From positions 174,902,001-174,966,000 of the forward strand of contig OZ024740.1 in assembly GCA_964016885.1 (NCBI GenBank): DNA of 64,000 nucleotides, given 5' to 3'. Of the stretch, positions 4,306-60,714 are shown in pieces. The notes under the pieces are model-generated. The model was not told the origin of the DNA and searched no databases. It worked only from the letters and a program-made list of their open reading frames with translations. Numbering within the stretch: the first letter of the stretch is position 1; every line of letters starts with the position of its first letter. The position numbers and the translations under genes were made by a program. Origin of the DNA: Eledone cirrhosa (Eukaryota).

Positions 4306-4555
4306 GAAGTGGTAACACAATAGTTAGTTCACCATACCGAGAACAATTGTTTCACCTTAGCGGATCTTCAGCTCGTATGGTAATATCCGTAGTGGTAGAG
4401 CACTCAGTCCATGGGACGAGTTAGCTGAAGATCCACTAAGGTGAAACAATTGTTCTCGGTATGGTGAACTAACTGTTGTGTTACCACATCTACCTAACTC
4501 GTCCCATGGACTGAGTGCTCTACCACTACGGATATTACCTTCCAGTGTTCTACCT
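4306..4555. mobile_element. Small (TA)n-flanked inverted Penelope-type insert with two hammerheads (family A)
   Basis: 4306-4372 is the reverse complement of 4424-4492, and 4379-4424 is the reverse complement of 4495-4540. TA/TC repeats flank both sides. Confidence 0.7.
4334..4378 (-). ncRNA. Minimal type I hammerhead ribozyme
   Basis: ATACGAG-CTGAAGA-TCCGCTAAGGT-GAAA-CAATTG-TT-CTCGGTAT. Stem I is CGAG/CTCG and stem III is palindromic. A second copy lacking most of the stem I 5' arm is at 4425-4460 (+). Confidence 0.7.
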
Positions 4556-4789
4556 CTCTCTCTATATATATATCATTTCATCATCATTTCACGTCCGCTT
4601 TTCTTTGCTTGCAAGGGTGGCACGGGAACTGATTCTGGCTTGATTTCTACAGCTGGATGCCCTTCCTAACACGAACCTCATTTACAGTGAGTGCTGGATG
4701 CTTTTTTCCGTGGCGCCTACACGTCCACTTTACAGTGTGGGCTGGGTGCTTTTTTTGCCGTGGCACCTCCATGACCACTTTGCAGTGGA

Positions 4790-5242
4790 ATGATAGGGAC
4801 CTCAGTCCTATCATCTCATTTCTACAGCTGAGTAAACTGGAGCAATGTGGAATAAAGTGTCTTGCTCAAGAAAACAACACATCACCCGGTCTGAGAATTG
4901 AACTCACAACCTTTCGATTGCAAGGCCAATGCTGTATATGTTTATATATATATATATAAACATAATATATATAAAGTCTGTTCTAAGCCGAAGGCTCATC
5001 AGGCTGGTGCTTATCCCGGTTTTCCTTGGTGTTAAGCGACTGAGAGTACTGTACAAGACTCTCCCTGGCTAGAACGCCAGTCTTTCGCAGGATTAACTCC
5101 TCAGCTGGTACCCACTCTCAGCTGATAGTACTGGAGCAACGCGAAATAAAGTGTCTTGCTCAAGAATACAACGCAGCGCTCTGTCCAGGAATCGAACCTA
5201 CGACATTATGATCATAAGTCCAACATTCTAACCATTAGGCCA
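4790..5242 (-). mobile_element. tRNA-derived SINE copies (two, partial)
   Basis: Shared CTGGAGCAA..AAATAAAGTGTCTTGCTCAAGAA core with B-box-like GGTTCGATTCC on the minus strand. A related copy is at ~61350-61465. Confidence 0.6.
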
Positions 5243-5856
5243 AACATTTTTTTTTTTTTTCAAAATTTCAGTTTTCCACCCACATTCCTTATTCCGACAA
5301 CCGTACCCTAATATTAAACCCTAACCCCAACACTCCTAATTCAAATTTTGAAAATGTTATTTATATATTTTTGTTCAGAATCGTACTCTCCTACATTTCA
5401 AATGTAAAAATTAGAACAAATAAAATAAAAAAACAATAAGGAAAAAAAATCTTACACCAGTTGGTCTAAATGGAGGACGGGGTGTATGAGTAAGCGCTAC
5501 ACACCCAGTTAAATATAATAACATTTTATTTGCGTTATACCATGATTGAATCAGAGTAAAATGATTGTATAAAACAAAGATTAAGTCAAGTTGAAGTCGT
5601 ATTATATATATATGTATTTGTGTATATATATATATATACACAAATACACACACGCTGAGGTATGCAAAGAGATAGTTTATAAAAGTATCAACAAGTAATG
5701 GTGCGTTTTATTTTAAAAGAACTTCGTATTTACGGAAAGAATATTGCAAGTTAAAAATCTAGCAATGATACTTAATTTAGAGAGAGAAGACATGAAAATA
5801 AAAACAAATGAAACGTTTAAATCGAAAAGTTGAGGCTGAATGAAATGGTTACTCAC

Positions 5857-56264: not shown

Positions 56265-59200
56265 GTAATAATAATAAATGCGAAGACTAAAATCCAAAGA
56301 GGGCTCGATAAGGATAATTAGATAATTATATATTAAATATATAAGAACCCCAGAGAAAATATTTATTAAAATAACAGATTAAAGTTTAAGCAAAGAATCG
56401 CTGCTTTCATCCTTAACGGGATCTTCTGAAACCAAACAAAATTCAATCTGTGAACGCAGAGGTAAATATTTCGAAAAACGTTGTTACCGAAGGAAAACAG
56501 GAAGACGACACTTTGGTTCGTGAAGACGTTCCCTGGCAATGAACGGAAAAAAGCGGAGATAATACGTCGTTATGTGGATCGCTGAGAACAATTACACGCA
56601 AAGACAAAACCACGTTTATGGTATAAATGGAGTCATTAAACTAATATTCTATTTAGGTAACCGAATGATTTTCGGCTTCGGAGTTAAGAATAATGTAAAT
56701 AAAGTAGTTGAACCAGAATGACAGAGGTTATTAAAATCATAAAAGTAATAATAATTAAATATATACACATATCTAAATAGTACATACACGTGCATACGCA
56801 AAATACACGCCATGCATGCATATACATGCACGTACACATAAACACGCGCTCACGTACGTAAACCGGCGCGACACATATACCCGCACACATACGGACATAT
56901 ATATCAAATACACATATAAATATGTGTGTGTGTGTATTTATATATGTATATATAATTATATATACATATATAAATATACCCGCATAAATGCGCATGTAAC
57001 GCACACACATACATACCTACAGGTAAATACACATGTTCACCAAACGTGAACTAAAACCTATCTTCACAACTACGCACCATACATACGTGCAAACACACAT
57101 ACACACTCATACATACCCATATATACACATATACAAACCTTACAGCTTACAGCAACACATACACATACCCAACGATAATCTACGTCTTGATGTGGTAGCT
57201 AAGTATATTTTATGTTTATACCATTACTTATTTGTATAGTAAGTATACCTTACCCGTATGTTTGTGGAGGTACGTATATATGCTTGTTTATGTTATAGGA
57301 GTATATATTATATATATTAGTGTGTGTGTATATAGTTATGTGTATGTGTGTGTATATTTGTATGCGTATATGCGTGTGTGTATATATGTATTTGTGTATA
57401 TTTATTTATGTATATTTATGTGTATATTGTATATTTGTGTGTGTATATATATATATATATATATATATATATATATATATATATATATATATATGAAAAA
57501 TATGGGTGAGAAGAATACTGCTGGTTGCACATGGATAACATGTTATAAAATGAGTCCCTCATCAGTGATTTACCAAACGATCATGGGTATTTCATCGCAT
57601 TAAAAATCATATACCTCACGTTGGAGCGATAATAACTAAAATAAGTTACTAGGACATATATATATATTTTTTTGACATTATATTTTTTCTTCATTATATT
57701 TTCTTCTTTCTTCTCTCCTTCCGTGCTCGTATTAAACCTATTATTTACTTTTTCATATTACAATACATAAAAACAAACTTAAACACTAACTAATTCCTCT
57801 AAGTTCATAATTCATTTAATATCTTCTTCATTCACCTTATATCCTTAATATTTTTATTTTAATAATACATATTAATAAATTCCTTTTCGCACATATTATT
57901 AAACCCTTCAATATATAAACCTTAAATAAATACTATTCTTAATTCCTTTTTCTTTAATCATAAACATCACTATTCATAAACTTCATTAACTTTTAATTTC
58001 AAAATTTTTTTAAATTTATACCTAGACTGGATTTCTGATGACACCGAGCTCACATATTAATTATTTCGCTGGAATAGTGCCTAAGGTGTTCATGTTTACA
58101 TAAAGTACGTTTTTCTTCTATGTATTCAAATTTACTTTGTTTAGTTTAATGAGCTACATCGAAAGCTACTTGAACCGTCCAAAGGACGGGTAGTTTAGCT
58201 AGTACACATATATATACTATCGCACTCCCACTCACTCAGTCCCTGTTTCTCCCCTTCTTTCTTCCTCCCGTTCGCTGGGAAAAGGGTTTTCACTCTTTCT
58301 AACACCGGATTCACTAGCGAAAGGTCTGTTTTCTGACTCGCTCATATATTCACACAGCTTATGCTGAAAGAATAACTATGTTGCTTGTATTTATTTCCAT
58401 CTTCGGTTAGCTTCCCCCCGTGTTGTTTACTTGTCTCACTCGCTTTACGCGTTTCTATTGTCCTAATAACTTATTTTAGTTATTATCGCTCCAACGTGAG
58501 GTATATGATTTTTAATGCGATGAAATACCCATGATCGTTTGGTAAATCACTGATGAGGGACTCATTTTATAACATGTTATCCATGTGCAACCAGCAGTAT
58601 TCTTCTCACCCATATTTTTCATATATATATATATATATATATATATATATATATATATATATATACACACACAAATATACAATATACACATAAATATACA
58701 TAAATAAATATACACAAATACATATATACACACACGCATATACGCATACAAATATACACACACATACACATAACTATATACACACACACTAATATATATA
58801 ATATATACTCCTATAACATAAACAAGCATATATACGTACCTCCACAAACATACGGGTAAGGTATACTTACTATACAAATAAGTAATGGTATAAACATAAA
58901 ATATACTTAGCTACCACATCAAGACGTAGATTATCGTTGGGTATGTGTATGTGTTGCTGTAAGCTGTAAGGTTTGTATATGTGTATATATGGGTATGTAT
59001 GAGTGTGTATGTGTGTTTGCACGTATGTATGGTGCGTAGTTGTGAAGATAGGTTTTAGTTCACGTTTGGTGAACATGTGTATTTACCTGTAGGTATGTAT
59101 GTGTGTGCGTTACATGCGCATTTATGCGGGTATATTTATATATGTATATATAATTATATATACATATATAAATACACACACACACATATTTATATGTGTA

Positions 59201-59749
59201 TTTGATATATATGTCCGTATGTGTGCGGGTATATGTGTCGCGCCGGTTTACGTACGTGAGCGCGTGTTTATGTGTACGTGCATGTATATGCATGCATGGC
59301 GTGTATTTTGCGTATGCACGTGTATGTACTATTTAGATATGTGTATATATTTAATTATTATTACTTTTATGATTTTAATAACCTCTGTCATTCTGGTTCA
59401 ACTACTTTATTTACATTATTCTTAACTCCGAAGCCGAAAATCATTCGGTTACCTAAATAGAATATTAGTTTAATGACTCCATTTATACCATAAACGTGGT
59501 TTTGACTTTGTGTGTAATTGTTCTCAGCGATCCACATAACGACGTATTATCTCCGCTTTTTTCCGTTCATTGCCAGGGAACGTCTTCACGAACCAAAGTG
59601 TCGTCTTCCTGTTTTCCTTCGGTAACAACGTTTTTCGAAATATTTACCTCTGCGTTCACAGATTGAATTTTGTTTGGTTTCAGAAGATCCCGTTAAGGAT
59701 GAAAGCAGCGATTCTTTGCTTAAACTTTAATCTGTTATTTTAATAAATA
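56265..59749. mobile_element. 3.5-kb family E insert: ~1.29-kb near-identical inverted arms (56360-57656 / 58459-59749), ~800-bp spacer, ~95-nt tail
   Basis: Mirror-image ORFs in the track. Hammerhead-like motifs at 56383-56433 (-) and 59676-59726 (+). Tail 56265-56359 is homologous to 47412-47505. Confidence 0.85.
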
Positions 59750-60133
59750 CATAAATATATATATATATATATATATATATATATATATATATATATATAT
59801 ATATACATTAAAAATGTTTCATCTTGGTGTTATATGTCTGAATTATTGTCGGCTTTTTGCTTACATTAATTTCTCTATTTTCATTTATATATATATATAT
59901 ATATATATATATATATATATTGTTGTAGGGTTATATATATATGTAATCTGAATTTTTCGAATATTGATAATAATATTCGATTCGTTTGCAATTGTGCAAA
60001 CATCCCTCTTTAAAGCCATGTCAGTAGAATGACCCCGTAATTCTTGCTCTTGTGTTGGCACACACATACCACACACACACACACATATACACACACACAC
60101 ATATATATATATATATATATATATATATATATA

Positions 60134-60714
60134 TAGGAACGAGTAGGACCCCGACGGCTGAGCTCAAGCCGTTTCGACGGCTAATTCTGGACTAAATGAA
60201 AATTTTTATCTTGGTATATGAATAGCCGAGCTTCTCAGGGGGTAATTCCATATATGGTAAAAGTGATTGGTCAAAAGTTTGTTGTTGAGACACATAATTC
60301 TATCATGGCAATTTGTGGAAGGAAGGGGTAGCTGAACCTGCCAGTAGAAGAAAGAGGGAGAGGGCGTGGAGGAAACCCAGTCGCACGATGGGTTTCCTCC
60401 ACCCCCTCTCCCTCTTTCTTCTACTGGCATGTTCAGCTACCCCTTCCTTCCACAAATTGCCATGATAGAATTATGTGTCTCAACAACAAACTTTTGACCA
60501 ATCACTTTTACCATATATGGAATTACCCCCTGAGAAGCTCGGCTATTCATATACCAGGATAAAAATGTTCATTTAGTCCAGAATTAGCCGTCGAAATGAC
60601 TTGAGCTCAGCCGTCGGGGTCCTACTCGTTTCTATTACCCACTCTACTACCCTAAGTATTGAGTACTTTAGTGCGTTATGGTCCACCTGGTTCCTTACCA
60701 CATTTCCTTCGTTA
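60134..60714. mobile_element. Family D fold-back insert (longest copy) with hammerhead-like motifs at 60148-60243 (-) and 60525-60620 (+)
   Basis: ~230-bp arms. ACCCC-CTGAGAA-..CGGCTA/TAGCCG..-GAAA-CGGC..GCC-GTC-GGGGT. About 80-nt tail. TA flanks. Confidence 0.8.

What the first reader, a model, noticed from the sequence alone, without database searches (positions are those of the whole stretch)
4306..60714. (TA)n-targeting Penelope/Naiad inserts share a two-fixed-ends, both-3'-ends-outward architecture
Seen: in family C (25815-26184, 42252-42885), D (22056-22209, 47604-47813, 60134-60714), E (45665-47505, 56265-59749), A, B and the 45336 palindrome, both junctions with (TA)n are element 3' ends pointing outward. 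The left end of 47849 is also a family C distal end. Within a family, independent copies stop at the same two points. The proximal point lies shortly after the hammerhead (C: ..TTGATCTTA; D: ..CCTA/TCTA; E: ..GTTATTTTAA). The distal point lies ~80-100 nt further on (C: ..CCTCCTACA; D: ..CCTTCGTTA; E: ..TTATTACTA). The internal turn-around point is free, giving inserts from 150 bp to 3.5 kb. Established: PLEs have inverted pLTRs with a short tail and carry hammerheads. Inference: both target strands are primed on the RNA at two programmed TA-microhomology sites, i.e. an obligate twin-priming route. Whether this precise rule has been described I cannot check.
Basis: partly seen in the sequence, partly recalled or inferred. 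Interest (0 to 1): 0.85.

Follow-up and report, generated by a model that had tools for sequence, protein, structure and literature searches.

The report
Twin-primed insertions of Hydra-type Penelope retrotransposons
Most copies of these Penelope-like jumping genes sit in TA repeats as head-to-head pairs that almost always have one short fixed end and one long fixed end, likely because both cut DNA strands start copying the same RNA at two preset sites, which would explain a known but unexplained feature of this element class.

Summary
Families C, D and E are Hydra-clade Penelope-like elements, not Naiads. Their 3' ends fall at two points: P, after the hammerhead, and D, 80-100 nt further on. 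Of 118 C/D inserts, 81 are inverted with one P and one D end, 1 is a complex P/P, 25 are colinear, and 11 are odd or unresolved. One D/D copy was seen as a bystander. The two arms share one source (96 of 96 lineage-marking sites agree). Either arm can be longer, some do not overlap, and inner ends of D arms pile up at P, so fold-back is excluded as the general route. Corrections: the route is dominant, not obligate; TA microhomology is only 2-3 nt; the inner turn has hot spots; a Neptune-type TA-targeting family in the window has one end and no inversion (0 of 20). Inverted pLTRs, a tail at one end and two internal start sites are published. The strict pairing, shared template and twin-priming reading were not found in the papers searched. 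Verdict: new variant of a known kind.

The parts
4306..4552 (.). Family A insert: left P end, right D end; minimal hammerhead cores at 4350-4371 (-) and 4425-4446 (+)
   Evidence: a long copy (L175) carries the same ORF C-terminus as family D
22056..22209 (.). Family D insert: left D end, right P end, turn inside the hammerhead stem III region
25811..26184 (.). Family C insert: left P arm (unit 3406-3573), right D arm (unit 3509-3660); hammerhead core 25865-25911 (-)
42253..42887 (.). Family C insert: left D arm confined to the tail (stops at P), right P arm; arms do not overlap; hammerhead core 42790-42836 (+)
44139..44359 (+). Family G (contrast): 3' end of a Neptune-type PLE with a canonical hammerhead core at 44241-44264, one fixed end, colinear
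   Evidence: 0 of 20 inverted; CxxC inside the GIY-YIG core in long copies
44387..45318 (.).
45336..45582 (.). Family H palindrome: left D end, right end atypical; family unit is a 290-nt tandem repeat with a tRNA-Ser(GGA)-like head
45666..47505 (.). Family E insert: left P arm with RT/EN remnant (47413-46193, minus strand), right D arm confined to the tail (47415-47505)
47604..47813 (.). Family D insert: left P end, right D end
47849..50767 (.). Family C insert: left D end (arm skips about 80 nt at P); right arm reads through P and D into the ORF start (50073-50766) and is broken off
56265..59749 (.). Family E insert: left D end, right P end, arms 94.9% identical over 1472 nt; variant hammerhead cores 56405-56428 (-) and 59681-59704 (+)
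60134..60714 (.). Family D insert: left P end, right D end; type I hammerhead-like fold with variant core at 60172-60238 (-) and 60530-60596 (+)

Best explanation
These are Hydra-clade Penelope-like retrotransposons whose inverted insertions carry one P end and one D end, likely because the element's enzyme nicks both strands of a (TA)n tract and primes two cDNAs on one RNA, one at each of two fixed internal sites. Shown: two fixed ends, strict pairing, same-source arms, unequal and sometimes non-overlapping arms, a pile-up of D-arm inner ends at P. Inferred: the sites are set by the protein-RNA complex, with 2-3 nt of TA pairing only fixing the register; the D-primed enzyme runs behind the P-primed one and either stalls at P or displaces the first cDNA (PLE RTs lack RNase H, recalled); each cDNA stops at random, at an RNA 5' end, or after several tandem units; the two cDNA 3' ends are then joined by end-joining with 0-5 nt overlap. 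If only one strand is primed, a colinear copy results (about one in five).
For: Pairing: 18 of 20 ORF-selected young copies are P/D, with 1 colinear and 1 hidden by N. Across 118 curated C/D inserts, 81 of 82 with two canonical ends are P/D (p about 3e-23). A motif-based pairing over all loci then held gave 146 P/D, 2 P/P and 1 D/D; both P/P were P/D on inspection and the D/D is real. Same source: over 640 nt in 12 inserts the arms agree at 96 of 96 lineage-marking site comparisons, against 43% discordance between inserts; 10 alleles are private to both arms of one insert and 0 are shared across inserts, while 12 single-arm alleles show the arms were not fully homogenised. The inverted arm is closest to its own main arm in 12 of 14 informative inserts. 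Two primings: in 37 short C inserts the P arm reaches further 5' in 23, the D arm in 8, and they are equal in 6; 7 D arms are confined to the tail. One molecule: in young copies 8 of 18 partner D arms stop within 30 nt upstream of P, while 0 of 17 partner P arms have that length (p=0.003). Literature: a purified Poseidon PLE cleaves and extends both strands, starts at two internal sites that bound the tail, and is predicted to dimerise (PMC11167929).
Against: 25 of 118 C/D inserts are colinear and 7 have an inverted arm with a non-canonical end. One D/D (L039) and one complex P/P (L324) exist. The pile-up at P is weaker in the fresh sample alone (5 of 9 vs 0 of 5, p=0.086) and in older copies (6 of 34 vs 2 of 50, p=0.057, hand-curated counts). 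About half of D arms pass P. Same-source arms do not separate one RNA from two RNAs of one locus or two units of a multimer. PMC11167929 reports no difference in start site between strands in vitro and no homology between start site and cut DNA. Searches return only the 40 best-matching candidates per DNA query, so proportions are for well-preserved copies. No empty target site was examined.
Confidence: 0.65

Rival explanations
1. An asymmetric enzyme dimer holds two RNA copies from the same source locus, or two units of a multimeric or circular RNA, one subunit starting at P and the other at D.
For: Explains strict pairing, same-source arms and long overlapping arms without strand displacement. 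Templates are multimeric: a 5-unit array whose four compared units differ by 0-3 substitutions in 2400 nt. A dimer is predicted for the Poseidon protein (PMC11167929).
Against: Does not predict D arms stopping at P (8 of 18 vs 0 of 17; window copies 42253 and 45666). With many active lineages, two separate RNAs should sometimes be discordant, and 0 of 96 comparisons were.
Confidence: 0.22
2. Self-priming or fold-back makes the inverted arm from the first cDNA or from an antisense template, as proposed for head-to-head Penelope repeats in PMC3846280.
For: Many short inserts turn at or beside a short palindrome (CATATG near -162 in family C). The single D/D copy fits a fold-back.
Against: A P-primed cDNA without an upstream tandem copy lacks the tail, and a D-primed one cannot give a longer P arm, yet P arms are longer in 23 of 37 short C inserts and 7 D arms are confined to the tail, so they share little or no sequence with the P arm. 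L132, L134 and L149 cannot be fold-backs. Fold-back does not predict that the second end falls on the other fixed site.
Confidence: 0.06
3. Two independent insertions into one (TA)n tract, later recombination, a pre-formed palindromic master copied as a unit, or assembly error.
For: (TA)n tracts attract clusters of these elements. In family E several hits share flanks and are not independent.
Against: No TA tract lies between the arms; arms are same-source; pairing is non-random; inner junction sequences differ from copy to copy apart from a simple shared turn in a few hot-spot copies; both TA junctions appear in contigs from raw runs.
Confidence: 0.04

Closest known systems
Hydra clade of C-terminal EN+ Penelope-like elements (Craig et al. 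2021, PMC8557442; includes Hydra-1_Obim in its supplement)
   Same: RT then C-terminal GIY-YIG without CCHH; DKT; CxCX5C linker; CxxC and CxH near the C-terminus; hammerhead; (TA)n target; an inverted 5'-truncated copy is noted for one Hydra family
   Different: Units are 3.57-3.66 kb (paper: generally under 3 kb); RW(T/R) rather than RWK; tails 62-100 nt rather than 30-40; end pairing not quantified in the passages read
Poseidon PAc of Anolis (Frangieh et al. 2024, PMC11167929)
   Same: Two internal RT start sites bounding the tail, downstream of the hammerhead; both strands cut and extended; AT-rich target
   Different: Sites 30-40 nt apart and inside the ORF there, 80-100 nt apart and upstream of the ORF here; no strand-specific pairing reported; no homology to target there, 2-3 nt here
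Penelope families of Adineta vaga (Arkhipova et al. 2013, PMC3846280)
   Same: Head-to-head inverted pLTRs with a tail optionally at the 3' end of one of them; partial tandems
   Different: Explained there by self-priming on an antisense template, which the arm geometry here contradicts
LINE-1 twin priming (Ostertag and Kazazian 2001; seen only as cited in PMC12350158, details recalled)
   Same: Both target strands prime on one RNA, giving an inversion with deletion or duplication at the inner joint
   Different: In L1 the first primer uses the poly(A) end, the second site is variable and the event is a minority; here both sites are fixed and internal, arms often overlap by kilobases, and it is the majority route
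Non-LTR retrozymes and PLE-dependent tandem elements (bioRxiv 10.64898/2026.07.22.740005; PMC4209133)
   Same: Families F and A are short hammerhead-bearing units related in behaviour to PLE pLTRs; F is tandem
   Different: The P/D paired inverted ends are not described in the parts read; family H has a tRNA head and no hammerhead core found

Membership tests
Penelope-like element (EN+) | Single ORF with PLE-type RT and GIY-YIG endonuclease | tested here: met
   821-aa frame with YRDD and C-terminal nuclease motifs; Pfam gave no significant hit, so the assignment is by motif comparison with the published alignment
Penelope-like element (EN+) | Partial tandem (pLTR), 5' truncation, inverted copy, tail | tested here: met
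Penelope-like element (EN+) | Hammerhead ribozyme motif in the pLTR | tested here: inconclusive
   Canonical cores in C, A, F, G; variant cores in D and E; no Rfam hammerhead hit; cleavage untested
Hydra clade | DKT in place of DKG | tested here: met
   SDKT in C and D, as in Hydra-1_Obim
Hydra clade | CxCX5C linker and no CCHH in the GIY-YIG core | tested here: met
   C and E have CxCX5C; the D copy examined has CxC with the third C changed; no CxxC in the core
Hydra clade | CxxC and CxH flanking the conserved E and N | tested here: met
   present in C and D
Hydra clade | N-terminal RWK motif | tested here: inconclusive
   RW is present but followed by T, I or R
Hydra clade | Insertion into (TA)n | tested here: met
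Hydra clade | Grouping with reference Hydra RTs in a phylogeny | not tested
   reference proteins were only read in a supplement, not aligned
Naiad | N-terminal endonuclease, CxC linker before RT, no canonical hammerhead | tested here: not met
   endonuclease is C-terminal and hammerheads are present in C; family H has no ORF and cannot be assigned
Neptune/Nematis | CX2-5CxxC linker and CCHH in the nuclease core | tested here: not met
   not met for C, D, E; met for the contrast family G
L1-type twin priming | First primer at a 3' poly(A) end, variable second site, target-site duplication | tested here: not met
   both sites fixed and internal; duplications cannot be read in (TA)n; it works like twin priming without being the L1 route

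The most novel reading that the evidence does not exclude
Programmed twin priming is the default integration route of Hydra PLEs: a dimeric enzyme loads both nicked strands of (TA)n onto two fixed sites of one circular or multimeric RNA, so insertions are built from two cDNAs joined head to head, can run several times round the template, and can carry non-coding passengers (hammerhead units and a tRNA-headed tandem SINE) by the same two-site signal. Neptune-type elements in the same niche use one site only.
Probability: 0.3. Interest if true: 0.8.

Novelty: new variant of a known kind. Interest (0 to 1): 0.6.

Why it matters
Craig et al. 2021 (PMC8557442, section 15) name the origin of tandem/inverted structures and the tail as an open problem, and the one in vitro study read here stops at initiation. 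The strict P/D pairing, same-source arms and D-arm stalling at P turn this into a specific, testable model and contradict the self-priming proposal for this clade. The genome holds dozens of intact, near-identical 821-aa copies, a ready substrate for reconstitution, and a one-ended Neptune-type family as a control. An enzyme that primes both target strands would also interest retroelement-based gene insertion. For annotation, many short palindromes here that resemble MITEs or miRNA hairpins are PLE run-offs.

Tried and rejected
Rfam: only sub-threshold miRNA hits from palindromes, no hammerhead. Pfam: no significant family for the ORFs. My first reading as Neptune was dropped. The first C search contained the D end, so it was not used for end frequencies or the 118-insert tally; it did supply partner P-arm lengths. 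The A query contained a tail/hammerhead joint, so 14 of its 25 loci are biased; the other 11 gave 9 P/D and 2 long unresolved. Family E: 14 of 30 hits fall in three shared-flank groups and were not counted as independent; of 14 remaining inserts 6 are P/D, 6 single or unresolved, 2 odd. Tail folding: no family folds better than shuffles (z from 0 to -1.35). No inner-end peak at the predicted hammerhead cleavage site in C. RNA: no RNA holder listed; contigs cannot show RNA ends. Empty sites were not recoverable because flanking TA tracts exceed contig word length. No dimer prediction was run. Paper searches found no paper with Penelope + twin priming + GIY-YIG (0 hits); subscription papers such as Evgen'ev and Arkhipova 2005 and Arkhipova 2006 were not available and may describe more. 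Earlier scan findings: none.
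Full report
Observation. The window is part of a 3.0-Gb animal assembly; a cephalopod host is my guess and was not tested. 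I call the end just after the hammerhead P and the end after the extension D. The nine complete C, D, E, A and F inserts each have one P and one D. The 47849 copy has a D end but its other arm breaks off in the ORF. The 45336 palindrome has an atypical right end.

What the elements are. The ORF fragment at 50138 found 150 scored matches, dozens with one intact 821-aa frame. One copy (L131) gives a 3660-nt unit with the hammerhead core at 3475, P at 3567-3573 and D at 3660, upstream of the ORF of the next unit. Family D has a 3573-nt unit and a 790-aa frame 42% identical to C; E's remnant aligns to the same C-terminus. The motifs (DKT, CxCX5C linker, no CCHH, terminal CxxC and CxH, hammerhead, TA target) are those given for the Hydra clade in PMC8557442 (passages) and match its supplementary alignment, which includes Hydra-1_Obim. 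They are not Naiads. A long copy of A carries the D-type ORF end. F is a non-coding tandem unit of about 480 nt with a hammerhead; H is a 290-nt tandem unit with a tRNA-Ser-like head. G's long copies have a CxxC inside the nuclease core, a Neptune-type feature.

Two fixed ends. Queries ending before P were used to avoid bias. About 97 of 98 terminating C/D anchor arms end at P or D. P-to-D distances are about 87 (C), 80 (D), 92-100 (E), 65 (A), 80 (F) and 62 (H). Contigs of public runs laid on the young unit show TA loose ends at 5253 (P) and 5341 (D); a further loose end at 5240 belongs to a sister subfamily; 410 lesser rows were not shown.

Pairing. ORF-selected young copies: 18 P/D, 1 colinear, 1 hidden by N, of 20; the main arm ends at D in 11 and at P in 7. 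Older C: 24 P/D, 10 single, 2 odd, 2 unresolved, of 38. Young hammerhead-anchored C: 17 P/D, 7 colinear, 1 complex P/P, 2 odd, 1 unresolved, of 28 after removing two loci that repeat L131. Family D: 22 P/D, 7 single, 3 odd, of 32. Together 81 of 82 inserts with two canonical ends are P/D (p about 3e-23), and 25 of 118 are colinear (18 P-ended, 7 D-ended). An automated motif pairing gave 146 P/D, 2 P/P and 1 D/D where no (TA)8 lay between the ends; the two P/P are P/D on reading and the D/D is genuine. F gave 8 P/D of 25 anchors and H 10 P/D among 25 loci, some overlapping. G gave 0 of 20 inverted, with one fixed end. Each DNA search scores only 40 candidates, so these are samples of well-preserved copies.

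Origin of the two arms. In 12 young inserts aligned over 640 nt, the arms agree at 96 of 96 lineage-marking site comparisons against 43% discordance between inserts; 10 alleles are private to both arms of one insert, none is shared across inserts, and 12 are private to one arm. The inverted arm ranks its own main arm first in 12 of 14 informative cases; three short D arms were uninformative. In 37 short C inserts the P arm reaches further upstream in 23, the D arm in 8, equally in 6, and 7 D arms stay within the tail. A single cDNA folding back cannot produce these, so two priming events are needed. In young copies 8 of 18 partner D arms stop within 30 nt upstream of P and 0 of 17 partner P arms have that length (p=0.003). 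The fresh sample alone gives p=0.086 and older copies p=0.057. This favours, without proving, one RNA molecule on which the trailing enzyme meets the leading one.

Corrections of detail. TA overlap at the four C/D sites is 3, 2, 3 and 3 nt; 20 alternating runs of 3 nt or more lie in the 360 nt around the C sites, including an unused 6-nt run, and 11-24% of positions touch such a run. Overlap can set the register but not the site. Inner ends range from about 20 to over 3000 nt but cluster: 11 of 37 P arms at -163 to -165, and most short young arms at unit 3403-3410, an initiator-like TCA that may be an RNA 5' end (inference). Family D clusters at -40 to -65. Junction sequences mostly differ between copies, and inner joints mostly show 0-5 nt overlap or small gaps. 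Templates are multimeric: one insert has five full units, four of them compared and differing by 0-3 substitutions in 2400 nt.

Mechanism. Best reading (0.65): both strands of (TA)n are nicked and prime two cDNAs at P and D of one RNA; the cDNAs stop independently and are joined head to head. Rivals: an asymmetric dimer on two same-source RNAs or two units of a multimer (0.22); fold-back or antisense self-priming (0.06); independent insertions or artefact (0.04).

What is known. PMC8557442 (abstract, outline, passages, section 15, supplement look-ups) states that an inverted truncated copy is often adjacent and a 30-40 bp tail is often at one end only. PMC3846280 (passages) has the tail optional on one inverted pLTR and proposes self-priming. 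PMC11167929 (parts 1-2 of 4; supplement text searched without hits, figures not seen) shows two internal start sites bounding the tail and extension of both strands, with no strand difference. PMC4209133 (passages) proposes circular templates. bioRxiv 10.64898/2026.07.22.740005 (parts 1-3 of 5; supplements closed) links retrozymes to pLTRs. PMC13282606, PMC8969392, PMC12910113 and PMC12350158 (passages) added nothing on pairing. Nine searches found no statement of the pairing rule or of twin priming in PLEs, but older subscription papers were out of reach.

Verdict. A real feature, already known in outline. The strict pairing, shared template, stalling at P, longer tails and the contrast with a Neptune-type family appear new. 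New variant of a known kind; interest 0.6.

Noticed in passing
window 45336-45582; L222 1209-1960: Family H is a 290-nt tandem unit with a tRNA-Ser(GGA)-like head (ARAGORN hits in 3 of 4 H loci scanned) that inserts in (TA)n with paired P/D ends and no hammerhead core found in L222: a candidate PLE-mobilised tandem SINE.
   Followed up: partly
L343 740 to L344 9519: One insert with five full tandem units plus a partial one and an inverted arm (over 19 kb); four units differ by 0-3 substitutions in 2400 nt, consistent with a circular or multimeric template.
   Followed up: partly
unit C 3403-3410 (window about 49722-49727): Sharp stop point for both arms at an initiator-like TCA, possibly the transcription start; would explain the many 300-430 nt palindromes.
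   Followed up: partly
window 57654-58019 and 48297-48662: The centre of the E palindrome holds a 366-nt piece 99.7% identical to the family C arm 9 kb away, though the E arms are 5% diverged: a likely later templated insertion or conversion.
   Followed up: no
window 44139-44359: Neptune-type family G targets (TA)n and (CA)n with a canonical hammerhead, one fixed end and no inversions.
   Followed up: yes
window 59681-59704, 60530-60596: Hammerhead cores of E (U4 position reads A) and D (G8 position reads A) are non-canonical in the copies examined; activity doubtful.
   Followed up: no
window 16187-16309, 20100-20334, 23405-24754, 29423-29614, 50859-51274, 54310-54522: A roughly 200-nt SINE-like family, seen inserting inside several PLE copies, often next to ATAAT.
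   Followed up: no
window 38956-40042 (+): Remnant of a further Hydra-type ORF (38-50% identity to the family C protein in short stretches).
   Followed up: no
window 1390-2919 (-), 51679-52514 (-), 6677-10249 (-), 11111-12640 (+): Degenerate RTE-like LINE frames, a degenerate RT-bearing element with nuclease-like C-terminus, and a transposase-like remnant; names recalled from the translations, not tested.
   Followed up: no
L103, L104, L109 groups: Old family E ends carried inside other repeats, sharing flanks across many loci.
   Followed up: partly
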